Origin: the human T2T-CHM13v2.0 reference genome, Homo sapiens
Assembly: GCF_009914755.1 (NCBI RefSeq)
Contig: NC_060932.1
DNA: 64,000 nucleotides
Reading direction: 5' to 3' (one strand)
The notes below the pieces were generated by a model. That model ran no database searches and was not told the DNA's origin. It saw only the letters and a program-made list of their open reading frames with translations. The position numbers and the translations under genes were made by a program. Of the stretch, positions 596-56,731 are shown piece after piece; within the stretch, counting starts at the first letter, position 1, and each line of letters opens with the position of its first letter.

Positions 596-904
<309 letters not shown>

Positions 905-1258
905 ACTCTGTCTTTTTATCAAAGATTGTAGGTGAGATTACAGAATCTTCTAGGTGGAATGAATTGTATTTGTCATCTTGTTCCAATCTTTACTAATGCC
1001 AGTTTAACTCACTAATATCTCTCAGGTATAAGCTGTTAACTCCTGCTTGAATATTTCCAGTGTTGGGGGAAATCAAGTCCTCAATTGGGAGCCCATTTCA
1101 TTTTTGGATAAATTTAGTTTGATTAAATAAAATTTTCTAGCACATCTTTTATTAGTATATATTAATATAGTTGTAAAAGAAAATTCTCAACTGGGATAAC
1201 CTGTTCATTTTGCATTAGTGGATGAAGAAATTTAACCACTGTTCTGTTGTTAAATTCA

Positions 1259-1666
<408 letters not shown>

Positions 1667-3265
1667 TCAGTAATTTTTGAATTTCAAAATAGGCCATCTT
1701 CTCTATCTTGGTTCCTACACCAATAAAATTATTATTAAGAGCAATTAATTCTATGAGTGACAGGTGAGTGTGCAGAATGTCTCACTGACATACTTCTTCC
1801 CAAGCAAACTGACCTCTGAACAAATGTGGATTTAATCATGTTAAGTTGACTCACAAGGAAACATGCTAACATGCGTTTAAGATTGATGGGCTTCAGAAGT
1901 GCAAGGCTGGGAGGACACCTGCCCAGGGGTGACAGAAGACCCTAGGTTGGTAATACATTTCCTAATGTTATGTCCTTCCTTGATAGCGGGGTTAGACTGG
2001 GCACATGAGAATTTCAAGAAAAACTTTTAAAAACCTTCCATACCACCATTCTTCCAGCTCACCCTCCCCAACATCTTTCATCCTTGGGAGGAAGAACTCT
2101 TCCTTTCTTCACTGGTCCAGCCCCCCACCCACACCCCCAGCCATGGAGAAGCCAAGAGAGTGGTAACTATTGCTATATTCTTTACCTAGAAGTCCCTGGT
2201 TGTAGATGATAATGATGTCTACCCATGAAGCGTTACAATTGCTTCAGTGACCAGGTCAATGGCCTCATAATTCTGTAATTCTATATTACACTGTTATAGG
2301 TGAAATTGGCACTTCTGACTCTGAAAATGCTGGCTTTATGGGACTGGAACTGGCTAATTGATCTGATTAAAAAATACACACGAAATGGTACTTGATATCA
2401 TTTGACTACCTAGAGGGTGGTAGAAACAGCTGTAATTTTGCAAGATAATATCAAGACAATAAAGGAGTCTTATAAGGCTACTGTCTCATTAAGGGATGGA
2501 TTTCTTCCCGAAGCCTCTTTGAAACCTGTCCTTCACATCTGAAGGAGGAGGCCAAGATATTCATACTATGTTGGGACTTACTAGAGCAGTAAAAACTCAA
2601 GAGCAGCCTGATGCTATAACAGAATAAATCTTTAAAAATCATTTTAACAATAAGATCATGAAAATGACTAGGAGATATGTGATTTAGAAAAATGAAAGAG
2701 AAAAGCTGAGACCATTTGGTTCATGCTTCATGTTCCCATTTCTGTTCATCTAAATAAGACATGGAGTGGTTCAACAAATTCTGAATGTCCCCAAGACAAA
2801 AATGTGCATTTTGCTCGTTACCTAATTCCAGAGTCCAACATCATAACCCATCAGAAAATTCATTCATTTGCTTAGCCTTCTTTTCTTTGCCCAGATTTCT
2901 CCTTTATTATTTTATACTAATCATTACAACTCCAATAAAAGTTGATGGGATGAAGTAAGAAACATTTTAGAGTTTATGATTCATTTTTCTTGAAGTTTTT
3001 AAAGCCTCCATTTAACTTTGATTTTCTTTATAAATGACAGAAAAAAACTGAGAGACATTCTGGACATAGCGAAGAACCAATTGTACTGAGCCAAATAATT
3101 ATCTAAAGATTCTCTTGTGTGGCAAATCCTTGGTTTTATGTGGCTGCTAACCGAAAAAAGAAATAACATTAAATGAATGTTTTTGAAAATACTCAGCACA
3201 GAACTTGGTTCATAGTAAGCACTATTTACAATAGTTATCATAATATAAAACTGGCAAAAGCTTAG

Positions 3266-3615
<350 letters not shown>

Positions 3616-20600: not shown

Positions 20601-20891
20601 CAAGTAGGGGAGAGAGAAACTGAAACATTGGTGGTTTGTTCATAGGGCCACAGGGTAGGTGTGAATTGAAATATCTCTTAGCACTGAATTAGCTGGGTTG
20701 AAATGTCATTGGCTGTAGTTGGTGAGATGACCACTATCCCATTGACTGAATGACCTTGGGTTGGCAACCTGGAGAATTTTAGCTCAGGAAATGAATAAAC
20801 AAACATATATCCAGACCTAAGTTACTCCATTTTCTTGTGAACATCAAAGATGTGGATTTTTTAGAGGTGTCAATACCATGGGGAGAAGAAG

Positions 20892-21128
20892 GTGTGTGTG
20901 TGTGTGTGTGTGTGCATGTTTATATGTGTGTGTGTGCATGTTTATGTGTGTGTTTGTGGGTGTGCAAGTTTATGTGTGTGTGCATGTTTATGTGTGTGTG
21001 TTTGTGGGTGTGCATGTTTGTGTGTGTGCATGTTTATGCGTGTGTGTGTTTGTGGGTGTGCATGTTTGTGTGTTTTGGGGTGTGCATGTTTATGTGTGTG
21101 TTTGCGGGTGTGCATGTTTGTGTGTGTG
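20892..21128. repeat. (TG)-rich compound repeat with recurring GTGTGCATGTTT units
   Basis: Directly visible. Confidence 0.95.
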
Positions 21129-24100
21129 GTTGTCGTTGTGTTTTCTTAATAGAAATTTTGAGAAAATTGAAATAGAATTATTTAAATGTTTAGCTTTGAA
21201 GGTTCAGAAGTAACTTTTAATTTAGGCAGATGAAAAACTTACACATCTTGGGTTGCTGATAAATTGCTCATGTTTGGTGTTTTAAATTTCTCAGTATGAG
21301 TTTTTTCAGACCACTCTTATACAATTTACTAATCACATGTAGTTATTGATGCTTTCCTTAATTTAATTCCAATGGAGCAACAAATTACTGACCTTCAAGA
21401 ATCCAGCATCTCTTACTTTTCACCAGTTGTGTCAGGGCAAAACTGGGAAAAGAAGAAACGGTCTATGTTAGAGCTACATTGCTACCTCTTTGGGGTTGTG
21501 CCTGCTACTTCCTTTTACCCTAACTTTCCCAACACACACATTTCTATAAGAATGGTGTAATTGGTTTAGCTTTTCTGGTTTTTTATTATCCCGTGTGTTT
21601 ATTTCCAGGCTTATCACTTATGAGTGGTCCTGTGTTTAAGTTTTCCCCAGACATGAAGTCCAGAGTGGGTGATACTTCATACAATGTATCCAAAGTCCTT
21701 ACTATCTCACAGTGTGACATGATTCTTTAGGGGACTAAAGGTAACATAAAAGTCACACAGTGGGAAGAGACACTGCCAAATCTAGTGGTGCATAACCTGA
21801 AATTCACAACAGTAGTTTGGGAATCCTTGAGATAGAAGAGGACCTTGCAAAAACTTCCATCCATACTGTATGCTTACTGAAGATAAGCCACTGTAAGTCT
21901 CTTTTGACACAAGGGGAAGTAAAAAGAAGTACATATATAAGTACCGTGGCTGTTCAGGCCAACAAAAATATCCGTTATCTTTTCTCTGGCTAGAATTCAG
22001 TCACCTTAGAATGGGAAGACCCATGTGTTTGTGTAGAGCAGGAAAACTGGTGGGTCAGGGCACATATAAAATTACTTGAAAAATGGGAATAAAAATTCAC
22101 TCACATCAAATGCAATTTTGCTTGGAAAGAAAAACCTTCCTCGATATGAACTGCGCTGTGTCAAACAATAAAAGTTATACTTGGTGGCAAAGAGATGAGA
22201 GCAATCCTGGTGTAGCTCAATGAAGAGATTTTACACTGAAGGATCTGAGCCCAGTCCTTGGCAAAGTGAACACCAAGAATGATAGAAAATAAATCCCACT
22301 TCTTTGTTTTCAAATTGAGGAAATAAGTCAGGGGAAAAGAATCCAGATTTTTGCTTTTACTCTTCCTACCTATCTTCTCATATTTAAAATATCATACATT
22401 TCCACCTTGACATATTTAAAGTGCTATACATTTATTGGGTCTTGTTTGTCAGCCCTCAGTTTTATGACTCCCCAAACAATGACTCAATATCTCATAAAAG
22501 AAGAGTCCAATTCGTTTGTGTAGAAAAGTTTTAGCAGGTTATCAGCAATGGGAGTAACCGTGGCTGCATGATGTATGCTTGACAACCTAAATGTGTATTT
22601 TTCATGTCTGTGGTTCTACATAAGCCTCAGTCCTATCTCTACCTTTATCTCTTCTTCCTTAGTCTACCCCAGGAACTTCAGAGAAAGGAAGGATGATGAG
22701 TCAAAGCAAATGGATCCAATTGCCTACTTAATCCATTCAATGTTCTCTGGAAGGCTTCAAATCCACTTGTCTTTTGAAACAGAGTGAAAAAGCAGACCCC
22801 ACTAATGATTCTCCCTGGCTGAACTCAGCAGCTATCCTCAGATTCAGAGCTCAGGACAGCCTGGGGAGTTTTATTGTCAGAAAAAGCCATGTTACTGGAA
22901 GAATGCAGCTTGACTTCAGGAAAATTTCCAAAGATTTCCATGTTCTTGACCCTAAGTCTGCAGATGTCTTATCTAATAAGCATCAAAACTTAATCTGATG
23001 TTAAAATGGTTAAAAAAATTACCTGTGGGGAAAAATATGCCTGTGATTCTCTGCATATTTATATTGAATATGGACAATTAGATGTCCTGTAACTTATCAC
23101 AGAAGCAGTTACCTCTGAAAACACACCTTTCTAAAGATCAAGATTCAATATTTCAGGTGTTTTTAGGGGGAGGAATTTCAGGTCAGAATTCCCTGTAGGG
23201 AAAGAGAAATCTGTGCTTTGGTCTTGAGCAAAGAAACTCAGGCTGAGATGGTGGACTTGCTTTTTCTCCCGTTCTAAGGTCTTGTTCCCTCATTCTTGGC
23301 TTAATTCCTGCTTGCCTGTAGATCTCAGCTTAAGGTATTTCCTGATTAACTCAGATCAATTTTCCCTCATCTACTACTCTACTACTCTGTCCTGCCATAA
23401 TTGTAACAATGTTCACAGTGAGCCTGCTGACCTCTTAGTAGCACCATCAAACTAAGCTCCGGAGTGCTTGCCCCACCTTCGTCTCTATCCCCAGATCCTA
23501 GAACTTTACTGGCAAATTGTAGTTTCTCAGTAAGCTGTTGATAAATGCATGGCTGAATGAATGAATGAACAAATAAGCATCTTGATAGGATTGCCTTTCT
23601 TAAGCTGAATGATAAAAGTAAGATGAGTTTGAATTTAAAAAATGCATTTTTTTGCACGCCTTCATATTCACAAAAAAGAGGCTTGCCCCTTAGTTTGAAT
23701 CCACCCTTTAGGGGCAGAAAGAAGAAGGAAAGAAATCAAATCCCAGGGAACAATATCACTCAATAAGAGAACATAATGACCATGGTGAAAACAGGACCTT
23801 GAAAGCAGGCAAAGTGTGATGATGTCTGTAATGATGTTTGGGTGTTTATCTACACAAAATCATAAGTTATGCTTAGAGAAAAGGGTAAATCTCATTCCCT
23901 AGTTAGGTAAGATTTTACCTCAAATACTTTTTAATTTTTTTTTCTTTAACTCCTGTTGCTGAATTTGGTATTCATGTTTTAAGACGGTTCACCAGGATAA
24001 GTGTAGCTGTTACCCTACAGTAAGATAACTGTAAACAGTGGATGTCCCCATGGCTTCCTGGTAAATTATTTATGGATGGTAGAATTCTGAAGTGTATGTG

Positions 24101-24899
24101 GCTCACCAGTATGGCCACAGTCTTGGAGCCTGTGTCTGAGGTAGGGAAACTGAATAGGGCAATGTCAGAGCTGAAAGGAATTGTTGGATCATCCAGTCCA
24201 GTTTTGCTATTGTTCAAATGAGGACACCGAGCCTTGGAGGGGAGAAGTGGTTGCCCAAGGTCTCTTAGTAGCAACTGGACAAATCTGACTCCAACTCAGT
24301 TCTGCTTAGTTTCTATTCAGGCCCTTCCACTATCATATGTGCAAATTTCAATTCCTGCAGAGATTTACTCAAAGATCACAAGACTCACAGTCTACAGAAT
24401 TAACCAGTTCACTCTGAGGAGCCTGAGGCTCAGCATTGGATCCACAAGGAGGTTTCAATCAGGACGGCAATCAGATGAGAATTCTTCCTTTTCTTCTAAT
24501 AAATACAGAGAACAAGATCTAAGAAAAGTCCCAGCTGGAATTGGTGAAGATATAGTAACCTAAATATATTCTTTGACCATGTTCACCAGCCCAGCCAGCC
24601 CCCACTGACTTCACATTTCCTTTTCTTCTGGTATCAACATTTGCCAACTCAAGTGGGACTAAATCAAATTGTTGTTTGTTTGTTTTTACTACTAGGCACA
24701 TGTGAGAGGCTGCCTAGTGTTGCCTTGTTCCAGGCAAACAATCATCATGCGAGGACACTCAGGCAATGAGATCCTTCTTGGTTGGGTAGGATTTCCAAAA
24801 TTTAGCTGGAGCAGAATCTGGTCATTTCCTGATGTTTTCATTTAAAATTTCTAAATAGCCGTGGTGAGCAAGTGACCCACATATATGAGAGGGTGAATA

Positions 24900-26380
24900 C
24901 ATGTACACACACATACACACCTCACACATACATACACATATACATACACACCACACACATACACACACACACCACACACATATACATACGTACCCCACAC
25001 ATACATACACATATACATACACACCACACACACACATATATACACACTACACACACACCCCACACACACATACACATATACATACACACCACACACACAT
25101 ATATACACACTACACACACACCACACATACATACACATATACACACATCACACACACATATATATATACACCACACACACACACCACACCACACATACAT
25201 ACACATATACATACACACCACACACACATACACATACACACCACACACATACATACACACCACACACACATACACATACACACCACACACATACATACAC
25301 ACCACACACACATACACATATACATACACACCACACACATATACACACAACAAACACACCACACATACACATATACATACACACCACACACACATATATA
25401 CACACTACACACACACACCACACCACACATACATATACATATACACACATATACATACACACCATACACACACATATATACACACTACACACACACACCA
25501 CACACACATACACATATACATACACATCACACATATATACACACTACACACACACACCACACCACACATACATACACATATACATACACACCACACACAT
25601 ATATATAAACACTACACACAGACACACCACACCACACATACATACACATATATATACACAGCACACACACATATATACACACTACACACAGACACACCAC
25701 ACCACACATACATACACATATACATACCACACACATATACACACTACACACATACACCACATCACACATACCTACACGTATACACACATCACACACATAC
25801 ACACCATGCACACATATCATACATATATACACATACCACACATACATACACCACACACACACCACATTCCTACCACACATAGACATATACTTGTACACAA
25901 CACACACAGCCACACATGGAAAGCAAATATGCTTCATTGCCTGGAATACAGATAAACATCCACGAGGTCACCAACACTGACAGGAGTAGAGAGCTTTACA
26001 CATGTTTATACACACCCCACACCTATACACATCACACACACATATACACACCACTCACATACACACACCTCACATCATATGCACATACACACATCACACA
26101 CATACAACACATGCAACATATACATACATACCACACATACATCCATATATACACACATCTCACACACACCATACCACACATATATACATATATCACACCA
26201 CATACACAGCAAACATACATAATACACATATAAACACCACACACATACACCACATACATACCGTACACACATATACATGCACACTACACATATACACACC
26301 ATGTACAAATACACATAACACACACCACACCACACCACACACATATTCACACACACTACACACACAACACACATAAATAC
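24900..26380. repeat. Approximately 1.5-kb (CA/TA)-rich VNTR-like low-complexity tract (UG-rich in the ADCY8 pre-mRNA), interrupted by a unique island at approximately 25916-25997
   Basis: Recurring blocks such as CACATATATACACACTACACACACACCAC. Confidence 0.95.
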
Positions 26381-26388
26381 TCACTCAC

Positions 26389-26409
26389 CTTCTGAGACTG
26401 ACAGATGAC
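26389..26409 (-). other. Candidate 21-nt cryptic/micro exon (GTCATCTGTCAGTCTCAGAAG = VICQSQK)
   Basis: Acceptor catcttctaccttgttttcAG, donor AAG|GTGAGT; in frame in a phase-0 intron; no expression evidence available. Confidence 0.55.
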
Positions 26410-26464
26410 CTGAAAACAAGGTAGAAGATGACACCCAGCATATATCTTCAGGCCACAAAGACGG

Positions 26465-26685
26465 AAGCAGTGTGAACTGATGGAAAGCATGGGGCTTTTT
26501 GAGTCAGATATATGGGGCTCTAATTCCATCTCTGTTATTTACCAGCTATGTGTCCTTCAGGGAATTAATCAATTCTCTCTGAATCCCAATTTTCCCATTT
26601 GTGAAGTAGGCACATCACACTTACCCTGTAAGGTTGGTGTGAGAATTAGGTGGAAAAACATGGGCACACCACTCCCGACATGCTA
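26465..26685 (+). mobile_element. MIR
   Basis: gagtcagat..ggctctaattccatctctg..agctatgtgtccttc..ctctgaatcccaattttcccatttgtgaa. Confidence 0.7.
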
Positions 26686-27224
26686 CCTGTCCCAAAGCTC
26701 TCTACTCCTGTCAGTGTTGGTGACCTTGTGGATGTTTATCTATATTCCAGGCAATGAAGTGTGTTTGCTCTCCATTTGTTACATGGAGATAGAAATTCCA
26801 TCTGTGTTTATAATCCTCATGGGAAACACATTAATTTCAAGATAACAAAAATGCCTCAAATCAGTCTATTGCATAGAAATGACTAAAACATACAGTGGAG
26901 GTACCAGTTGTGTACTTTTCTCCATATGACTCTTTCAAAAGGCCTAGCGGAGTAACAGAAACATGCCTGGATTCTCAGGCTGTAATAAATGTGAAAGGGA
27001 TGGATGGGATGAAGATGATTCCACAACATACGGAAACAAATTCCAGGCTCTGAAAAGGGGCCTTGCTTCTCAAAGAGTAGCCTCAGTTCTCTTGGCATAT
27101 CACTTGTCATAAAAATCCAGTTAAAATGATTAATATCCTACACACAATACATTTTTATAGCTACATAAAAACCTTTGGTATCTTCTTGAAAATCTGAAGT
27201 CTAAGACGGATCTTTTTTCTGCTA

Positions 27225-28095
27225 AGTCTACTCTTGTCCCGACAGTCCATTCTTCACAGGCAGCCAAAGTGATCCCTTAAAAATCTAATTGAGATCACAT
27301 CACTGCCCCGCTTTTACCCTTTCTATCACTTCTGGAATAAAATACATCAACAAAGCTTGCAGGACGGAGGTCCCAGCCCCTTCAGCTCCATCTGTTACTC
27401 CTTTTCCCTGCTCACTATGCTCTAGCCACTTGGGACTTTTTGCTGTTCTAACACACTAAACTCCTTTCTACCTCAGGGTGTCTGCACTGCTTTTCCTCTG
27501 TTTAGAATGCTCTTTTCCTGCTTATTTGCATGAGAGTCCTTTTAGCACTCATATTAAATCTTTAGAGAGACTTTCTCTGACAATGCCTTCTGTATGCTAT
27601 ATACTCCCTGGTCATATCTCTCTATTTCCTTCATTACACTTATATGTTTTGATTAATTGTCTGCATTCCTCACTCCTTTGAAATGTAAGCTCCTGGGCTG
27701 GGTGCAGTGGCTCAAGCCTGTAATCCCAGAACTTTGGGAGTCTGAGGCGAGTGCATCATTTGAGGTCAGGAGTTCGTGACCAGCCTGGCCAACATGGTGA
27801 AATCCCATCTCTACTAAAAATACAAAAATTAGCCAAGGGTGCTGGCACGCGCCGGTAATCTCAGCTACCTAAGAGGCTGAGTTAGAAGAATCGCTGGAAC
27901 CCGGGAGGCGGAGGTTGCAGTGAGCCGAGATCGTGCCATTGCACTCCAGCCTGGGCGACAGAGTGAAATTCCATCTCAATAAAAAAAAAAAAGGAGAAAA
28001 GAAAAGAAACATAAGCTCCTGGAGGACAGGATTCATTCATTACTGGATCCTCAGTATGTAGTACACTTGAGTATCTGTTAAATAACAGAATGAAC
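27225..28095 (+). mobile_element. L2 3' region, interrupted by an Alu
   Basis: cagccaaagtgatcccttaaaa..gatcacatcactg; tgtaagctcctggaggacagg L2 terminus. Confidence 0.7.
27696..28005 (+). mobile_element. Alu (AluSx-like)
   Basis: Dimer; TSD GAAA(TG/CA)TAAGCTCCTG. Confidence 0.95.
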
Positions 28096-32143: not shown

Positions 32144-32414
32144 ATTCTGTTTCCCCACGATATTATCAAAGGGCAGTTCAGGGCTCCAGGATCCTTCAGT
32201 GAATGTGGCCCCACTGTTTCTCCGGTCTGAGGAGCTCACTGACTCCTTGACGATATCTTCAGGCAAGGACAGCAGACTGTCCTCAGGCTGCTTAATTAAG
32301 TAAGTTTCGATATTATGCTTCCTCAGGAATTCATTCCTCTCTTTACCATGGCCCTCTTCCACGTTATAGTCACCGTTGAGACAGTCCAGCGTGGCTTTGG
32401 AAATGTGAATCCTC
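32144..32414 (-). CDS. ADCY8: ADCY8 coding exon (probably exon 7): [23 protein letters not shown]...[14 protein letters not shown]
   Basis: 271 nt; acceptor cacAG|GAGG, donor AAT|GTAAGT; 1 nt plus 90 codons; joins the previous exon in frame to give GGIPG-RIHIS. Confidence 0.97.
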
Positions 32415-36484: not shown

Positions 36485-37354
36485 TGATTTAAACTTGGTC
36501 ACTCTTCTGTTTCTTAATGTTATTGAGAACAATAGCTAAACTGGCTTCCAGATATCAAAGCAGTATCTTACAAATCCCCAAAGCATCCTCTAAGGTTTGC
36601 AAAAGGAATCTATTGAGTATATGGGCAATTCCCCATTTGGTGATGCTTTTAAGATACAGTCCTGGAAACACAGATGAATTGGCTAACTTGTTTGTCTAAA
36701 TTCAGCAGGTAGTTACTTGTGGGAAAATCCTAAAGAATGGAAAGATTTAAGAAACCCAGCAGTGACACATCAGACCTTCCTCAATTCTAAACCTGTCTGG
36801 CAAACAGCCATGACACACCACATAGAGTGAAGGATCCCCATAAGAATAGTAACTGACCTGGGGTGTCCCTGCACAGTGTACAAAAAAAAGCGCTTCATAC
36901 CCATTGCCTGAGATAATCTTCAGAGGAGACCTGTGAGGTGGATTATGCCATTATAGCAGATGAGAGAACAAACTCTCATGGAGGAGGAAAATAAGTTCAC
37001 AAGGTAGCAAATCATAAGTAGTATTATCTCTCTTCCTGCAGTGAAGAAAGTTGGACTCAGAAGTTAAGCACTGGCCTGAGATCACACAGGTAGAGTGATG
37101 CAAGCCAAGTTCACACTAAAATCACACGCCAGGTGCTGTGCATGCTTTACATAACTTGCTGAAGATAATAGAGTTTAGCAAGGGGCAGAGTGGGAATCCT
37201 AGTTACTCTGATTCCACCTCTTGTTGTCTGTTTCCCCCATGATAACATATTACTTGATATTAAACATAGTTTGCAAGGAGTGATGGCACATACCAGAGAA
37301 ATCTGTGACTCCAAGGGCAGTTCTAGGGGGTAGGAAAAGGAATATGTGGAAGTG

Positions 37355-37386
<32 letters not shown>

Positions 37387-37426
37387 ATCTCCATCCATCC
37401 ATCCATCCATCCATCCATCCATCCAT
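37355..37426. repeat. (CT)n plus (CCAT)n microsatellite
   Basis: Directly visible. Confidence 0.95.
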
Positions 37427-38070
37427 CATCTTTAAGAAAGAGAGGCTGCAGAAAATCACACTGGCTCACATATATCTGAGATCTTATTAGGTCCAATCTG
37501 TGTAAACAGAATCTTGATACAACTTTTCAAGACTTACATTAGTTGCAGTGGCCTTTGCAGACCACTAGCACCTTTGGGGATCCTATGTCAACCAACCTTG
37601 ACAGCCAAATTTGAAATGTTGAGTTTCTAAGGAAGAGCCTGATTTCCTCACTGAGTCCTAGATCATGCATGGAAAGTCAGTAGGTCTTAATCCTGGCTGC
37701 CCATTACAATTCACTGAAGAACTTAAAATAGATTCTGCACAGATTCTGCTTTAAATAAACTGGCATGGGGTCTGGACACTAGTATTTTTTAAATGTTCCT
37801 TTGGAGATTCGAATGTGCAGCCAAGTCTAAGGACCAATGCTGTGCAGGGCAGAGACCCGAACACCTCAGTGTTATTCCACATCCTTGTTGCCTCTGATGC
37901 ATTTTACTAGATTTTGGAAGCTAATAGTTGTATGATGTTTCAGTGTCTGGTCTCCTTCCAAATAATTGCTTCCTAGATCTAACCCTGAATTTCTGTACAC
38001 AGGAAACCCACTGTCACAAAATAAGCCAATGACAACCGTTAAGCATGAAAAGGGCTTTGCTTTATCTTAC

Positions 38071-38229
38071 CCGGGGATTCCTCCAGATTCGAGTTTGTTT
38101 GCAATATCCACATCCCAAGACCAGACATCAAACTGCCACTTCCTTAGTCCCAAAACACCGCACAGCACCGAGCCGGAGTGGATTCCAATCCTCATGTCAA
38201 CATCGTGTTTTGTCCTTGACCGCACATAC
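38071..38229 (-). CDS. ADCY8: Adenylate cyclase 8 coding exon (probably exon 6), C1a catalytic domain: (R)[52 protein letters not shown](G)
   Basis: 159 nt; acceptor caacAG|GTATGT, donor CCCGG|GTAAGA; phase 2/2; class III cyclase motifs MRIGIHSG and [17 protein letters not shown]. Confidence 0.97.
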
Positions 38230-47138: not shown

Positions 47139-47474
<336 letters not shown>

Positions 47475-48355
47475 TTAAACAGAGCTCTGTGGGACTGGTC
47501 AGTATCGCATGTCCAAACTGGGAGAGTCATTTAACCCGAAACTTCATCTACCCTTTTGCTGTTTTTTAACATGGCCCAGACACTTAACAGTTACAGGCTC
47601 ATGTGGAGAGTGTGGGGAGTCCTGGCCAAAGATTTTTGTGTGCATTATTTAACTCACACTCGCACACACACACACACACACCACACACATGATGTATGTT
47701 GTGATGGGCTATGGCCAGGCCAGCTGTAGGCACATAGATACAGTGAGAGCAAGAACATGGCTCTGTGTCAACAGGAATTTCATGTAAAGGGGTTGATCTC
47801 TGAGTGCCAATGTGGCCTCTCTCCTAGCCTGCAGAAGAGTGGGTGCAGAGCTTGAGGGTTGGGTGGGTAAATGTTTAACAACTGTCTCTTTGGGAAGAAA
47901 AGGTCCTGATTTGTGATGTCTGTCAACTTCTGTGGTGTCACTATTTTTGTCATGGATGAGTTCAAGCTTCCAACTTGAGGTCAACTGGCTTGTAAAATTC
48001 CTGCAAGTTTAACAGTTGGCTTTTGCAAACAGACAGGGGCTGACCTAGGCATATCACTTTTTAAGGCTTGTGACTGGGTAGTTTTCTCCTCCTAGGGGCA
48101 GCTGAGACCACTGCAATTCACTTCCCTCTGTATGGAACAGAGAGGGACACCACAGCCCAGCCCACTTCCTGTGCCCTTACTCCTCTGTGCTTTGTGTCTT
48201 GCTTGTTTCTGTTGTGGCAATGAGCTGAAGTCACTTCAACTATCCTCCAGTATTCAAACCTGGATTAGTCCTTATGGTGTGGCCTTCCACATTATTATCC
48301 CCATTTCCTCAGGAAGAAACTGAGATTCAGCATGTTTAAAATTCTTGGAAGCAGG

Positions 48356-48528
48356 GCCTGGTGCAGTGGCATTTGCCTATAATCCCGGCTACTTGGAAGG
48401 CTGAGGTGGGAAGATCCCCTGAGCCCAGGATTTCCAGGCTGCAGTGAGCTATGATTGCACCACTGTGCTTTAGCCTGGGTGACAGAACGAGACTCCGTTT
48501 CTTAAAAAAAAAAAAAAAAAAAAAAAAA
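48356..48528 (+). mobile_element. Free Alu monomer (FRAM-like) with long pure A tail
   Basis: Single right-arm-type monomer; degenerate TSD ATTCTT(G/A)GAAG(C/T)AG. Confidence 0.82.
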
Positions 48529-48879
48529 GATTCTTAGAAGTAGAATGTAAACCAAGTTCTCCTGAATTCTAAATCCTAAGCATTTCCTATTATATCACGT
48601 GGCCTCTTCCCAGAAGTGTCACTGGGTTAGAGTGAGAACTGTGTTACATGAAGACAGTAAGCAACAGACAAACAGTGTGCCAGGGACACTGTGAGGAGCC
48701 TTCCATTTAGAACCAAAAACACCGTGATCCAAGGATGCTAATGGAATATGGCTCCACCGCATGTGGGGCTCCTGGTATTTCAAAGGGAAAGACAGCTGTG
48801 GTCACACTAGACTCCCCTGCCCACAAACCTCTAAAGGCTCTGCCACTTATCCAATGAAGTGAAAGTGTTTTTACTATTA

Positions 48880-48917
48880 CTAAGTTGGTGCAAAAGTAAT
48901 TGCGGTTTTTGCCATTA
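48880..48917. mobile_element. Solo Hsmar1/MADE1 terminal inverted repeat
   Basis: TAAGTTGGTGCAAAAGTAATTGCGGTTTTTGCCATTA matches half of MADE1. Confidence 0.88.
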
Positions 48918-49005
48918 ATACATTTTGATAGTCACCCTGACTCATCTCCATATATTCTAACTCTGAGCTTTTGCAGATGTTATTGCCTAAGGGAGGGAGG
49001 AACAC

Positions 49006-49415
49006 TGTGATTTTTAATTTTATGTGTCAATTTGGTTAGGCCTTTGTATCCAGATATTTGGTCAAACACCAGGCTAGATGTTGCTGGGAAGGTGTTTTTT
49101 TAGGTGAGATGAACATTTAAATCAGTAGACTGAGTAAATCAGATTACCCTCCACAATGTGTGTGGGCTTTACACAGTTGAAGGCCTTAAGAGAAAAATTA
49201 CTGCTGTTCCCCAAGGAAGATGAAATTCTGAATCCAGCCTGCTTTTGGACTCAAGCTACAATATCAACTCTTCCCTGGATCTCCAGCCTGCTGGTCCACC
49301 CTGCAGATTTTAGACTTAACTAGCCTCCACAATTTTGTGAACCAATTTCTTAAAACAAATTTTTATAAGTAATACACACCCTGTTGGTTCTGTTTCTCCA
49401 GAGAACCCTAACACA
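49006..49415 (+). mobile_element. MLT2 (ERVL) solo LTR
   Basis: TGTGAT..TAATTTTATGTGTCAA start; GGTTCTGTTTCTC..GAGAACCCTAACACA end; TSD AACAC. Confidence 0.88.
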
Positions 49416-49768
49416 AACACCTTCCTGTCATCTCTACCTGTCAATACTTTTCCTTTTTGAAATAACATTTTCTTTTCTAGTTCTATTAGTTATACATGAT
49501 TATTCCCAAATATTAAAAAATATAGTAAAGAATAAAGAAGAAAATTAAAACTACTCAATTTCATCACAGAGCTTTATGTCCTTTCTTTTTATAAAAATAG
49601 ATGTATTAAGAAGTGGAGGTTCCCATTCCAGCAGGGGTAGCTAAAAATAAATAAAAAATTAAAAAAGCTGAAGTTGGTTTAAATATGTGTGCATGTGTGT
49701 ATGTGTGTATTCTACTATGTATACTTTAAATGCATGAGCATTTTTCATGCCATTGAATATTAATGTAA

Positions 49769-51188
<1,420 letters not shown>

Positions 51189-52574
51189 GATGAACATGAT
51201 TCAGAGCCTTTGCTATGTCACTTACAAGCTGTGTGTCATTGGTCAGAAGATGTTTTTATTCTATCAGAGCTTGAGTTTCATTTGGAAATTGTTCTTCACA
51301 GAGTTTTGGTATTTGTGAAGTAATTCAGGTAGATTATTTAGTATAGTGCCTGGCACATGGCAAACATTCTATCAATATTAGTTTATCAACAATTATTTCT
51401 AGATATATTCAATTTTCATTATTACAAATAATTTTGCTAAAAATAAAAATTTCTGTCCATGTACTGAACATCACTCTAATTGAAGCAGGCTTATGAGTGC
51501 TGAATTTAATGACATTTTGGAACAGAGTGAGACAAGGGATTTTTGGGGGAAATAAAGAAAGGGAAAGAGAGAGAGAGAAAGAGAGAAAAGAAAAGAGGGA
51601 GAAGAAGTGACGAAGGGAAGGAAGGAATAGACAGAAAAAAATAGAAAAAAATAAAATGTAACAAAGAGAGAAATAAAAAGGAAAGGAGGCTGGGAGGCAG
51701 GTTTAGGCATTCTTGCCTTCAGTAAAAACAATATAATTTCTGTTTTTCGTTTCTTGTCCTGCCATATTGCTTGGCAGGGTGACCCTGCCACAAGGATTAA
51801 GACCTTTACTCTGATTAACTGTTGGGGACAAACCAGTTACTACTTGGCATTCTGCTGTCATTCCTATGACTTTTTTAGCAATTGCACTGAAAAGACCAAG
51901 CTCTGCAATTTTCATTAAGATTAATCAAGAACAACTTTTGCAGATCATTAATAAACATTGCATATGACAGAGCCCAGTGTCAGCCCTGGCATCTTCTCAA
52001 CGATCAGGACTCCCCAAAACAGACATAGAATATGTGAAGAGAAGCCACCTGGAGCCACTTTTCAATCTATGTAATAGAATCTATTATATAAACCTATTTT
52101 AATTAATTTAATTTTATGAACAGACATGCATGAGATGACATTAAGTGTTTCATTGGAAATAAAATTACATTCAATCTCTTTTTTGCCATTCATCTAGCTA
52201 ATATCATGTTTCTAAAATTAAGTATTTTTGGTGGATTGAATTTACTATGAGGCTGTTTTGATTAGGGCTTATTATCTTGTTATTCTTAGATGTTTATTGA
52301 CTGACATTTTCCTCTTTCAATATCAGTTCTGCTAAAGTATTAGAAATGTACCAATGTATGTAGGATCTCCTAAACTATATGTTGATCCTTTGAGTATTGA
52401 TGGCAAATTTCAGGCATCAGTAGCAATTGCACAAATCTGGAGTTGGGAGGTGGGCTACCATGATGACTAAGATAGACGGCTTTGAAGTCAGATGATTCCA
52501 GAATTGGTCCCCTTGTGCTGCCACTGACTAGTCATGTGATCTAGGTGGAGGTAATTATACAACCTCTGTTAGCT

Positions 52575-53008
52575 TGTATGGCAGAGGCACCTGACAGCCA
52601 TAACTGAAGCATACCCTGAGGGTGACCCTATGGTCTAAGAAGAGCGTTAGTTTGGAGTTCCAAGCTAAGGAATCTGAGAGTGGCCAACATGGAGATCCAC
52701 TGCTTATCCATGAAGAACAGCCAAACCTCTGGCTCATTCCCCTGGCACACAGGCTGTAAGGGGACTGAGGCCCTTTGCTTTGGATGAAATGGGGGTTGCT
52801 AGGTAGAGAGCACTAAGTAAAAATGCTGTATAAACAGCATACTTTTTACAAATGGTAGTTGTCTTCTTGTGCAGGGTGCCACCACTAGACCACCCCATAT
52901 GTAATTTCCCCCTGTAAACCCTATGTCTTATTTGCTGTCTCTAGGTCTCATCTTCAGCCTGAGACACAGTACCATCCCTACTGGATGCAACAGGGGTCCA
53001 GCACTACA
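52575..53008 (+). mobile_element. ERVL solo LTR (LTR47-like) inserted in a MIR
   Basis: TGTATGGCAGAGGCACCTGACAGC..GCATACCCTGAG; end AGGGGTCCAGCACTACA; TSD (T/C)AGCT. Confidence 0.75.
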
Positions 53009-53286
53009 CAGCTCCAATTTTCTCATTGGTAAAGTAGGAGCCCACTTCCAGACCTTCCATTAGTTAGGACAAACCTGTCTAGCTATATTGTTTGTTGTTT
53101 GCATCCATTCTCATTGTTGCTCTAAACTAGTCTGATTTGTCCATGCTGCAGACATACTTAGTTCTTCAGTATTTGGCCTATCACCCCGCCTATCTTCTAG
53201 AATTTTTATGAGGACTTAATGAGCCAATACATGCAAGACATTTATCTCAGTATCTGGGATATAGTTAGTGTTTAAGAAACTCAAGC

Positions 53287-53614
<328 letters not shown>

Positions 53615-54490
53615 CTATCATTATTTTATGGGCATAGAATAGAAGCCATGGTAAAACAATAGGTTTCTGTAACTCAACTGCATCAAATTTTCCAGGACCC
53701 AAACTCAGCCTCCCTTGCAATATTCTATTAAAAATATTTCCATAGTGATAACATGCATGCTACCTATTTGAATTTTCCTATTTGAAATTGGGATCTTATT
53801 ATCCTCATTTTGCAGACGAGGCCATGGAGGCTATAAGTTAAGTCACCCACCCATCATTACAGACCTAATTACAGGAAGAGGCAGGAAACAGGGTAGGTCT
53901 GTTGCTGCCTGTCAAGGGCCCCCCAACCCATCCCACTCACTCAGCATATTTTCTATGTCACCTTACAGTACAATAGGCACTCTTTCAGGGAAGCTTTGTC
54001 ACAATCACATCCAGCAATGAATTATAATTTTAATAAAATGGAATCCTGACTGGAATTCTTGGAGTAGTCAATTGAAAATTAGTTTAATGTCATGATAAAT
54101 GTTTGGTTTAATTAAAATTTGTATGTCACATATTGTCTGTTGGGTGACTCTTGGAACTCAGCTTTGATGTGTTATCATCCCATCCTTTCTATTTCACAGC
54201 TGCTGCTCTATTTCAGATCCTTACTTCTCTCCCCTGGATTAGTATGAGAATATCCCCAAACCAGTTTCCTTCCCTTTGGCCTCTGCTCCTCCATTCCAGT
54301 GTCAAGGGGAGAGAGAGTTATCCCTCTCCACAGTCATCTTCCTGACATCCAGATCTGACCATGTCACTTCCCTACTTTAAGAGTCAGTGACTTTTCATTG
54401 CCTGAGGGATAAAGCCCCAGCGTATCGTACCCTAACCCTATTGTTTTAATTTAGAATTGTGGTAATCACCAAGGTCAGCTTCAATGCTTA

Positions 54491-54610
54491 ACACACACAC
54501 ATGCACATACATACAAACACATATAAACACACACATATATACCACACAGGTACATACATTTACACTCATACATACATATGTACACACATACACTAATGCA
54601 CACATACATG
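54491..54610. repeat. (CA/TA)-rich low-complexity tract
   Basis: Directly visible. Confidence 0.85.
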
Positions 54611-56274
54611 TGGCTTTTGCCATTCTTAACAGCTAGCATGACTCATTGTTCAAGCCTTTGTTTCCAGGAAAAAAAAAAAAACCTTTGGTTCTTGGTTTAA
54701 AAGGCTACTGTGCAAACAGCTCAGTAAAAGGCAAATGACAGGGAAAAAGGTTTCCCTCATACTCGTACTTTTGATTGACTTGACTCTTGCCCACTTTGCA
54801 TTTAAAAAATATTTTTTATTTTATTTTTTGTACATTGACAGGTAAAATTGTATATATTTGTTGCATACCACACGAAGATTTGAAACATATATACATTGTG
54901 GAATCTAGCTAATTAACACATGTATTACCTCACAGTTATCATTTTTATGGTGAGAACACATGACATCCAGTCTCTTACCATTTTTCAAGAATAAAATATA
55001 TTGTCAACTATAGTCACCAAGATGTATAATAGGTCTTTTGAATTTATTTCTCCTATCTAATTGAAATTTTGTATCTTTTGATTAACATCTCCTCAACCAC
55101 ACTCCAACCACCCCTAGACCCTGATAATCACCACCTCTACTTCTATGGGTTAGCTTCTATAGCTTCCACATAGGAGTGAGATCACGAGGTATTTATCTAC
55201 CTGTGCTTAGCTTATATTTTTTAACATAATGTCCACGTTCATCTATATTATTGAAAATGCCAGGATTTCCTTCTTTATGGTGTAATAGTATTCCATTACA
55301 TATATATATATATATATATACACACACCACATTTTTCTTTATCCATTTCATCCATTGATGGACATTCAGGTTGATTGCATATCTTGGCTATGGTAAATAA
55401 TGCTGCAATAAACATGGGAATGCAGATATTTCTTCAACATACAGATTTCATTTCCTTTGCATAACTACTCAGTAGTGGAATTATTAGACATATGGTAGTT
55501 CTATTTTTTAAGTTTCTGAAGAACTGCCACTGTTTTAAATAATGACTGTATTAATTTACATTTCCACCGGCAGTGTTCAAAGTTTCCTTTCCACCACCTC
55601 CTGGTCAATACTTGTTATCTCTTGACTTTTTGATAGCAGCTATTCTAATAGGTGTGAAGTGATATCTCATTGTGGTTTTTATTTGCATTTCCCTGATGAT
55701 TAGTGATGTTTAACTTTTTAAAAAATATACCTGTTGGCTTGTATACCTTCTTTTGAGAAATGTATATTCAGGTCCTTTGCCCATTTTAAAATCAGGTGAT
55801 TGATTTTCTTGCTATTGAGTTGTTGGAATTTCTTATATATTTTGGATTTTAACCTTTCATCAGAAGTATAGTTTACAAGTATTTTCTCCCATTCTGTAGT
55901 TTAGGTTCACTATCTTAATCGTTTCTTTCGTTATGCAGAAAGTTTTTAGTTTTTCAGATAGTTTGCTGTTAATATATAGAAATGCTACTTATTTTTGTAT
56001 GTGGATTTTATATCCTGCAACTTTACTAAATTTGTTTAATTCTAACCATTTTTTTTTTGGTGGAGTCTTTAGGGTTTTCTCTATATAAAATCATGTCATC
56101 TGCAAACAGAAACAATTTAACTTGTTCCTTTCCAATTTAGATGCCTTTTAATTCTTTCTCTTGTTTGACCGCTCTAGCTGGGACCTCCAGTACCTATATT
56201 GAATAGAAGTGGCAAGAGTGGACATCCCTGTCTTTTTTCAGATCTTAGAGGAAAAGATTGCAACTTTTTATTGT

Positions 56275-56731
<457 letters not shown>

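What the first reader, a model, noticed from the sequence alone, without database searches (positions are those of the whole stretch)
25916..26775. 82-bp inverted repeat brackets the candidate microexon
Seen: the unique island within the CA tract (25916-25997) is the reverse complement of 26694-26775. Identity is 76/82 with no gaps and a 33-bp perfect run on the loop side. The 696-nt loop holds the microexon, a MIR and about 380 nt of UG repeat. In the pre-mRNA the six differences give 2 G-U wobbles and 4 A-C mismatches, and A-C is the ADAR-preferred context (established). I recognise no transposon in the arms. Inference: a long RNA stem loops out the exon as a second repression layer or serves as an editing substrate. 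It probably arose by an inverted template switch into the unstable repeat.
Basis: partly seen in the sequence, partly recalled or inferred. Interest (0 to 1): 0.75.

Follow-up and report, generated by a model that had tools for sequence, protein, structure and literature searches.

The report
Unique inverted duplication in ADCY8 intron
An 86-base stretch in an ADCY8 intron also sits, backwards, inside a nearby CA-repeat tract; this one-off inverted repeat should fold the transcript into a long hairpin, but nothing shows that the hairpin has a function.

Summary
Chance does not explain it: the longest inverted match in 200 shuffles was 18 nt.

The arm occurs only at these two places in the whole T2T genome. 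It is not detectably part of any dispersed repeat and matches no Rfam family.

The left copy interrupts a 1.4-kb CA/CATA tract. The most likely origin is therefore a templated, inverted insertion (template switch or break repair) into the microsatellite. Polarity and age (roughly 20-45 Myr by my estimate) need primate outgroups.

In the ADCY8 pre-mRNA the arms are predicted to form an 86-bp duplex of -141 kcal/mol, with mean pair probability 0.92. That is the kind of duplex ADAR edits.

No function is shown:
- No annotated exon lies in the loop.
- The 21-nt "microexon" is only a good splice-site pair.
- The published TDP-43 cryptic exon of ADCY8 maps about 11 kb away.
- The 2 G-U / 4 A-C pattern follows simply from six transitions.

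Verdict: a real but ordinary mutational scar, and a new instance of a known kind.

The parts
25912..25997 (.). Left arm: an 86-nt island of normal composition inside the CA/CATA tract; inferred to be the inserted, inverted copy
   Evidence: 79/86 to the right arm; the island is 21% G, the flanking tracts 1-2% G; only two places in the genome match.
26694..26779 (.). Right arm: an 86-nt stretch in unique sequence just beyond an old dispersed repeat; inferred to be the template
   Evidence: iterated nhmmer with 26657-26950 against 264 kb finds only itself and the left arm (2 of 2 hits); dispersed-repeat homology ends at about 26656.
24895..25911 (.). Left part of the compound CA/CATA microsatellite (UG-rich in the ADCY8 pre-mRNA)
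   Evidence: TRF: AC period 2, 24905-25866, 72% matches; 1017 nt, 46% A, 38% C, 29 runs of (CA)>=4, longest run 6 units.
25998..26375 (.). Right part of the same kind of tract, now inside the loop
   Evidence: AC period 2, 26027-26373, 64% matches; 378 nt, 45% A, 37% C, 7 runs of (CA)>=4, longest run 5 units.
26389..26409 (-). Candidate 21-nt microexon: unannotated, splice signals only
   Evidence: phase 0, would insert 7 residues without a stop; the only 9/9 match to the donor consensus on the minus strand of the window, with an AG 21 nt upstream behind an 82% pyrimidine stretch. About 1 such donor is expected per 64 kb by chance.
26479..26671 (.). Old dispersed repeat (MIR by my recall) inside the loop
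   Evidence: 10 matching places in the window plus L004, reaching at most 26656. iteration 1: 5 further copies in the 264-kb sample, reaching at most 26671.

Best explanation
This is a one-off inverted micro-duplication, left by DNA replication or repair, and most likely neutral.

DNA step (inferred): a fork stalled or a break arose in the long CA/CATA microsatellite. The free 3' end switched to the opposite strand at least 318 nt away and copied 86 nt from 26779 down to 26694. It then returned, leaving the reverse-complement copy at 25912-25997 inside the tract. The two copies have since drifted apart by 7 substitutions.

RNA consequence (predicted): both arms lie in one ADCY8 intron. The pre-mRNA can therefore close an 86-bp near-perfect duplex around a 696-nt loop. 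A duplex of this length is expected to bind dsRNA-binding proteins and to be edited by ADAR in neurons. That would happen as a by-product, as it does for inverted Alu pairs.

No effect on ADCY8 splicing is expected unless the unannotated 21-nt exon candidate in the loop is really used.
For: Shown:
- The repeat is real and non-random.
- It is unique in the genome: 2 of 2 matches are this locus. A 331-nt query over the right arm finds only itself, the left arm and one match to the dispersed-repeat part.
- It is not part of a detectable dispersed repeat. No Rfam family reaches threshold; the best is mir-297 at 36.9 bits against a gathering score of 90, and that hit lies in the CA tract, not the arms.
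- The left arm is an island with 21% G between two stretches of like composition with 1-2% G. This is why I read it as the insertion.
- Seven differences, not zero, argue against a fold-back assembly artefact.
- The stem dominates predicted folding.
- Among 23 inverted pairs (>=50 nt, >=85%, spacer <=3 kb) in 264 kb, 22 have arms with 118-221 copies in the sample. Only this one has 2.

From papers, passages read:
- Template switching creates new inverted repeats in human DNA without pre-existing homology (PMC5453318).
- Inverted templated insertions flanked by microhomology are a germline class (PMC8421209).
- Structures below -30 kcal/mol are strongly enriched in A-to-I sites, odds ratio 13.2 (PMC8052449).
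- Duplexes of 60 bp or more recruit endogenous ADAR, and A-C is the preferred mismatch (PMC10244592).
Against: - No outgroup sequence could be examined, so the polarity (right to left) and even the insertion itself are inferred from anatomy.
- The template is 696 nt away now, and at least 318 nt of that is not microsatellite. The tool in the paper read looks for templates within 100 bp, so this event would be unusually long-range for that class.
- Microhomology at the junctions is weak: 3 nt (ACA) at the outer junction and none visible at the inner one.
- No editing, RIC-seq or PARIS data for this site could be reached, so the dsRNA and the editing are predictions.
- The only perfect donor consensus on the minus strand of the 64-kb window lies inside the loop. 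That is what the functional reading would predict, although one such site per 64 kb is also the chance expectation.
Confidence: 0.7

Rival explanations
1. One reading: the stem is a functional splicing element. It loops out a real neuronal 21-nt microexon (26389-26409, minus strand) and adds to repression by proteins bound to the UG-rich tract just downstream of its donor site.
For: The candidate has a 9/9 donor, an AG 21 nt upstream behind an 82% pyrimidine stretch, and is the only such donor on the minus strand of the window. It is in phase 0 and adds 7 residues without a stop. The arms flank it at 284 and 391 nt (coordinates). Looped-out exons have lower inclusion, more so for more stable structures (PMC8052449, passages). 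ADCY8 is a TDP-43 splicing target (PMC12262666).
Against: The exon is in none of the RefSeq transcripts in the hub's table. No paper in the library holds ADCY8 and microexon. The TDP-43 knockdown tables list one ADCY8 event each, and it maps to about 37294-37384, in the next intron. One perfect donor per 64 kb is the chance expectation (my arithmetic). The UG tract is degenerate: the longest pure (CA) run is 6 units on the left and 5 inside the loop. The arm differences show no bias toward pair-preserving changes: only 2 of 6 are wobbles on this strand.
Confidence: 0.06
2. Same event, opposite polarity or a different source: the left arm is the original and the right arm the copy, or both are the ends of a very old, otherwise unrecognisable element whose interior was later filled by the dispersed repeat and the microsatellite.
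For: Without an outgroup nothing fixes the direction. BLAST and nhmmer cannot see very old repeats, and the genome search scores only the best candidates.
Against: It needs two CA/CATA tracts of like make-up to have arisen independently on both sides of an 86-nt island. There are no other copies of the arm in 3.1 Gb. The bases next to the outer ends are not duplicated, so there is no target-site duplication. 92% identity is too high for the ends of an element older than the dispersed repeat it would enclose; that repeat's copies are only detectable by profile search.
Confidence: 0.15
3. The hairpin is a selected ADAR or dsRNA-protein substrate with a regulatory role of its own, for example nuclear retention or intron processing rate, independent of any exon.
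For: The duplex is very stable (-141 kcal/mol) in a brain-expressed gene. Four A-C mismatches are present, and ADAR prefers that context (PMC10244592).
Against: The mismatch types follow from transitions alone. No editing data were found. Thousands of inverted Alu pairs are edited with no known consequence (recalled general knowledge).
Confidence: 0.07
4. Assembly artefact in T2T-CHM13: a fold-back chimera inside a hard-to-assemble repeat.
For: It lies in a long degenerate microsatellite, a difficult context.
Against: The copies differ at 7 of 86 positions, whereas a fold-back artefact copies its template exactly. Both junctions are clean, and the tract continues on both sides.
Confidence: 0.02

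Closest known systems
Template-switch mutations of the four-point model (Loytynoja and Goldman 2017, PMC5453318; passages read). Event type 1-4-3-2 / 3-2-1-4 creates a new inverted repeat.
   Same: A fragment is written as the reverse complement of nearby sequence in one event, needs no pre-existing repeat, and creates a stem in DNA and RNA.
   Different: The events described there are short and local; fragments shorter than 14 bp were removed as noise. Here the fragment is 86 nt, the template at least 318 nt away, and the target a microsatellite, a kind of sequence those scans mask. The ancestral state was not seen.
MMBIR-type templated insertions, MMB-TI (Osia et al. 2021, PMC8421209; passages read)
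   Same: An inserted inverted copy of a nearby template, a germline class in normal genomes, linked to replication stress.
   Different: That tool searches for templates within 100 bp and expects microhomology at both junctions. Here the distance is 696 nt and only 3 nt of possible microhomology is visible at one junction.
Inverted Alu pairs in introns, the main ADAR substrates (recalled general knowledge; examples in this window at 645-3615 and 47162-56717)
   Same: Intramolecular dsRNA in a pre-mRNA formed by two inverted copies less than 3 kb apart. Editing is expected as a by-product.
   Different: The arms are unique sequence, not a repeat family. They are shorter (86 against about 280-300 nt) and more alike (92% against 72-86% for the other inverted pairs in this window).
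Exon loop-outs by complementary intronic regions (PCCRs; Kalmykova et al. 2021, PMC8052449; passages read)
   Same: Two complementary intronic stretches that would place a splice-site pair in a loop. Such loops go with lower inclusion.
   Different: PCCRs are defined by conservation and flank annotated exons. Here conservation is untested and the exon is hypothetical.
Hairpins and new miRNA genes born by template switching (PMC10710096, significance section read; PMC8794818, search listing only)
   Same: One mutation event makes a perfect stem in a transcript.
   Different: The loop is 696 nt and the stem 86 bp, which is not a pri-miRNA shape. No Rfam miRNA model matches the arms.

Membership tests
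Template-switch / templated inverted insertion | The inserted fragment is the reverse complement of a nearby stretch of the same chromosome | tested here: met
   79/86, ungapped. No other copy in the genome.
Template-switch / templated inverted insertion | An ancestral or outgroup sequence lacks the fragment at the target site | not testable with these tools
   No primate genomes are held. The insertion is inferred only from the island interrupting a CA/CATA tract.
Template-switch / templated inverted insertion | Microhomology at the switch points | tested here: inconclusive
   The outer junction has 3 matching bases (25912-25914), then a mismatch, before the solid match begins at 25916. The inner junction shows none. 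About 8% later divergence blurs this.
Template-switch / templated inverted insertion | Short range (template within about 100 bp, as searched by MMBSearch) | tested here: not met
   The distance is 696 nt now, of which 318 nt (26376-26693) is not microsatellite (PMC8421209). This is a limit of that tool, not of the mechanism.
DNA transposon / MITE with terminal inverted repeats | Many copies in the genome | tested here: not met
   2 of 2 genome matches are the two arms themselves. There are 2 copies in the 264-kb sample, against 118-221 for the other 22 inverted pairs.
DNA transposon / MITE with terminal inverted repeats | Target-site duplication next to the outer ends | tested here: not met
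   The bases outside 25912 and 26779 do not match each other (alignment).
ADAR substrate (long intramolecular dsRNA) | A long, nearly perfect duplex within one transcript | tested here: met
   Prediction only: -141.1 kcal/mol, in both the MFE and the centroid structure, mean pair probability 0.92. Both arms lie in one ADCY8 intron (hub table).
ADAR substrate (long intramolecular dsRNA) | A-to-G differences between RNA and DNA at the site | not testable with these tools
   No editing database is held. Paper searches found nothing on ADCY8 intron editing.
Exon loop-out structure | The complementary regions flank an exon that is actually used | tested here: inconclusive
   There is only an unannotated 21-nt candidate with good signals. 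No literature support was found. It is absent from the TDP-43 cryptic exon tables read.
Exon loop-out structure | Conservation or compensatory substitutions in the arms | not testable with these tools
   No orthologues are available. Supplementary files of PMC8052449 held as text contain no ADCY8 entry or nearby coordinates, but only 245,821 characters are held.
Known RNA family (Rfam) | A match at the gathering score | tested here: not met
   There are 3 sub-threshold matches, all in the CA tract and none in the arms.

The most novel reading that the evidence does not exclude
A primate-specific hairpin, born in one template-switch event inside a UG-repeat tract, acts together with UG-binding repressors such as TDP-43. 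Together they keep a 21-nt in-frame neuronal microexon of ADCY8, which would add 7 residues to the linker between the first catalytic domain and the second membrane domain, switched off or tightly regulated. This would be a dated example of a new splicing-control structure created by a single mutation.
Probability: 0.04. Interest if true: 0.65.

Novelty: new member of a known kind. Interest (0 to 1): 0.25.

Why it matters
As it stands, the finding is one clean, datable example of a long-range inverted templated insertion into a microsatellite. Scans for template-switch events mask this sequence class and search only short distances, so such events may be under-counted. It also adds one non-Alu candidate dsRNA to a brain-expressed gene. 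It would matter much more only if the 21-nt exon proved real and dependent on the stem. That can be checked directly with existing brain RNA-seq and a minigene.

Tried and rejected
- Transposon ends: rejected. There are only 2 genome copies and no target-site duplication.
- Right arm as the tail of the neighbouring dispersed repeat: not supported. Copies found by iterated nhmmer reach at most 26656-26671, and the right arm with its flank finds nothing else in 264 kb. By eye, against my recalled MIR consensus, the first few bases of the arm might still belong to it; this was not tested.
- Known RNA family or miRNA: rejected.
- The published ADCY8 TDP-43 cryptic exon as the 'microexon': rejected. 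CE012 maps to about 37294-37384 in the neighbouring intron.
- Editing and duplex data:
  - Searches for ADCY8 with A-to-I and intron gave 3 papers, none relevant by title or abstract start.
  - ADCY8 with 'editing sites' gave 1 paper, on PDE8A.
  - ADCY8 with microexon gave 0.
  - Supplements of the RIC-seq paper (PMC10691357, 1 file, 1,910 characters) and of the PCCR paper (PMC8052449, 5 files) held no ADCY8 or nearby coordinates. These files are small or cut, so this is not evidence of absence.
With 0 low-copy inverted pairs among the 22 found in that 200 kb, the rate is bounded only loosely.
- Age from divergence: Jukes-Cantor K = 0.086. Substitution rates recalled from memory then give roughly 20-45 Myr. 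Only 7 differences and possible gene conversion make this a rough guess.

Full report
**1.

In 24500-27500 there is exactly one inverted pair. Its arms are 25912-25997 and 26694-26779, 86 nt long and 92% complementary, with 696 nt between them.

The match is ungapped, with a perfect 33-nt run at 25965-25997 next to the loop.

The longest exact inverted match in 200 dinucleotide shuffles of the region was 18 nt (mean 11.9), against 33 observed.

A seventh, G-A, sits at 25915.

**2. What the arms are**

- Copy number: a search of the whole 3.1-Gb assembly with the left arm returns two places, which are the two arms themselves. A 331-nt query over the right arm returns itself, the left arm, and one 81-nt match elsewhere on the chromosome that covers only the dispersed-repeat part.
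- Relation to the neighbouring repeat: iterated nhmmer shows that the old dispersed repeat in the loop has many relatives. I recognise it as MIR from memory. There are 10 places in the window plus one locus and 38 hits in a 264-kb sample. Their homology ends at 26656-26671. The right arm with its flank (26657-26950) finds nothing but itself and the left arm.
- Known RNA families: Rfam gives only three sub-threshold miRNA-like matches, all inside the CA tract.
- Other inverted pairs: in the whole window the other 17 pairs of 40 nt or more are at most 86% complementary. They lie mostly in stretches the hub lists as masked, or are poly-A/T or TG/CA simple sequence. The ones printed look like Alu to me (recall).
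- A wider sample: I surveyed 27 tiles, 264 kb in all (the window plus 200 kb about 1 Mb away). There were 23 inverted pairs of at least 50 nt and 85% identity within 3 kb. For 22 of them the arms had 118-221 matches in the sample. Only this pair had 2.

**3. How it probably arose**

The left arm has ordinary composition (21% G). It sits between two stretches of the same unusual make-up, 45-46% A, 37-38% C and 1-2% G. TRF reads both stretches as degenerate AC-type arrays. The economical reading is that an 86-nt piece was written into one pre-existing tract.

Its only possible template in the genome is the right arm, in inverted orientation. That is the signature of a template switch or an MMBIR-type templated insertion:
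- Such events create new inverted repeats in human DNA without prior homology (PMC5453318, passages).
- Inverted templated insertions are a germline class (PMC8421209, passages).

Three reservations apply:
- The template is 696 nt away, and 318 nt of that is not microsatellite. This is further than those studies look.
- Microhomology is weak: three bases at the outer junction and none visible at the inner one.
- No outgroup could be examined, so polarity is inferred.

Seven differences give a Jukes-Cantor distance of 0.086. With substitution rates recalled from memory, this suggests an event some 20-45 million years old, with a wide error. Six of the seven differences are transitions, and one removes a CpG.

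The seven differences also argue against a fold-back assembly artefact.

**4. What it does in RNA**

- Folding: the 931-nt minus-strand transcript folds with the stem in both the MFE and the centroid structures. The z-score is -8.9, and none of 20 shuffles folded as well.
- Energy: the two arms alone give -141.1 kcal/mol on the ADCY8 strand and -145.9 on the opposite strand. The opposite strand is an intron of a predicted lncRNA.
- Probability: in a 1.9-kb context the 86 register positions pair with mean probability 0.92.
- What the literature predicts for such a duplex:
  - Complementary regions below -30 kcal/mol are enriched 13-fold in A-to-I sites (PMC8052449).
  - Duplexes of 60 bp or more recruit endogenous ADAR, and A-C is its preferred mismatch (PMC10244592).

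Editing is therefore a fair prediction. The A-C pattern itself is not evidence, because any transition in one arm must give G-U or A-C. The split of 2 wobbles to 4 mismatches shows no sign of selection for pairing.

**5. The splicing idea**

The candidate exon is 26389-26409 on the minus strand.
- It is 21 nt and in phase 0. It would add seven residues without a stop.
- It has a 9/9 donor and an AG behind an 82% pyrimidine stretch.
- It is the only such donor on that strand in 64 kb. However, about one is expected by chance (0.5^2 x 0.25^7 x 64,000).
- It is in no RefSeq transcript of the hub's table, and no paper in the library holds ADCY8 together with microexon.

ADCY8 does have a published TDP-43-repressed cryptic exon (PMC12262666; passage and two supplementary tables). 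By junction arithmetic it lies at about 37294-37384, in the neighbouring intron, where I found its donor within 2 nt of the predicted place. Those tables list no event at the present locus.

The UG tract is degenerate: the longest pure run is 6 units, and 5 inside the loop.

Looped-out exons are indeed less included (PMC8052449). But here there is no evidence of an exon to loop out.

**6. Verdict**

This is a real, unique, non-random inverted duplication. It is best explained as a neutral templated insertion into an unstable repeat. A stable intronic hairpin, probably edited, is its by-product.

It is a new instance of known kinds, and of modest interest. The regulatory reading is not excluded, but I give it about 5%.

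Everything that would decide the matter needs data not held here: primate orthologues, brain RNA-seq junctions and editing calls, and a minigene.

Noticed in passing
window 20885-21135 with 24895-26375 (best duplex 20890-21134 with 25167-25425): A 250-nt TG-rich tract lies in the opposite orientation to the 1.4-kb CA tract, about 4 kb away in the same intron. As ADCY8 pre-mRNA the two could form a far larger duplex than the 86-nt stem: 211 pairs, -299.7 kcal/mol. The two tracts bracket the annotated 50-nt alternative exon 21393-21442, which brings in a stop codon when included.
   Followed up: partly
window about 37294-37384: The published TDP-43-dependent cryptic exon of ADCY8 (CE012 of PMC12262666, 'start site' type, up to 85.7% inclusion when NMD is blocked) maps here, in the intron between exons 32144-32414 and 38071-38229. 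A GT donor lies within 2 nt of the predicted place. The exon overlaps the start of a (CT)n/(CCAT)n repeat at about 37356-37428, not a UG repeat.
   Followed up: partly
window 26001-26009, and 20915-21093: The 9-mer CATGTTTAT lies 4 nt from the inner end of the left arm, inside the otherwise C/A-only tract. It occurs 8 times in the window, against 1.3 expected. Five of these are in the TG tract at 20.9-21.1 kb. Its 8-nt core is also in the right arm, and its complement is in the left arm. It could be a second short templated piece from the same event, or it could be chance. I noticed the motif after the fact, so I give no probability.
   Followed up: partly
window 24878-24937, 24977-25022, 26262-26316 (minus strand): There are weak, sub-threshold resemblances of the UG/UGUA tract to the repeat-derived miRNA families mir-297 (36.9 and 25.4 bits, gathering score 90) and mir-4012 (23.8 bits, gathering score 80). 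This most likely reflects composition only.
   Followed up: no
window 645-3615 and 47162-56717: Clusters of inverted high-copy repeat pairs (Alu by my recall) have arms of 45-306 nt at 72-86% complementarity within 0.4-3.7 kb. These are other likely dsRNA-forming sites in ADCY8 introns.
   Followed up: no
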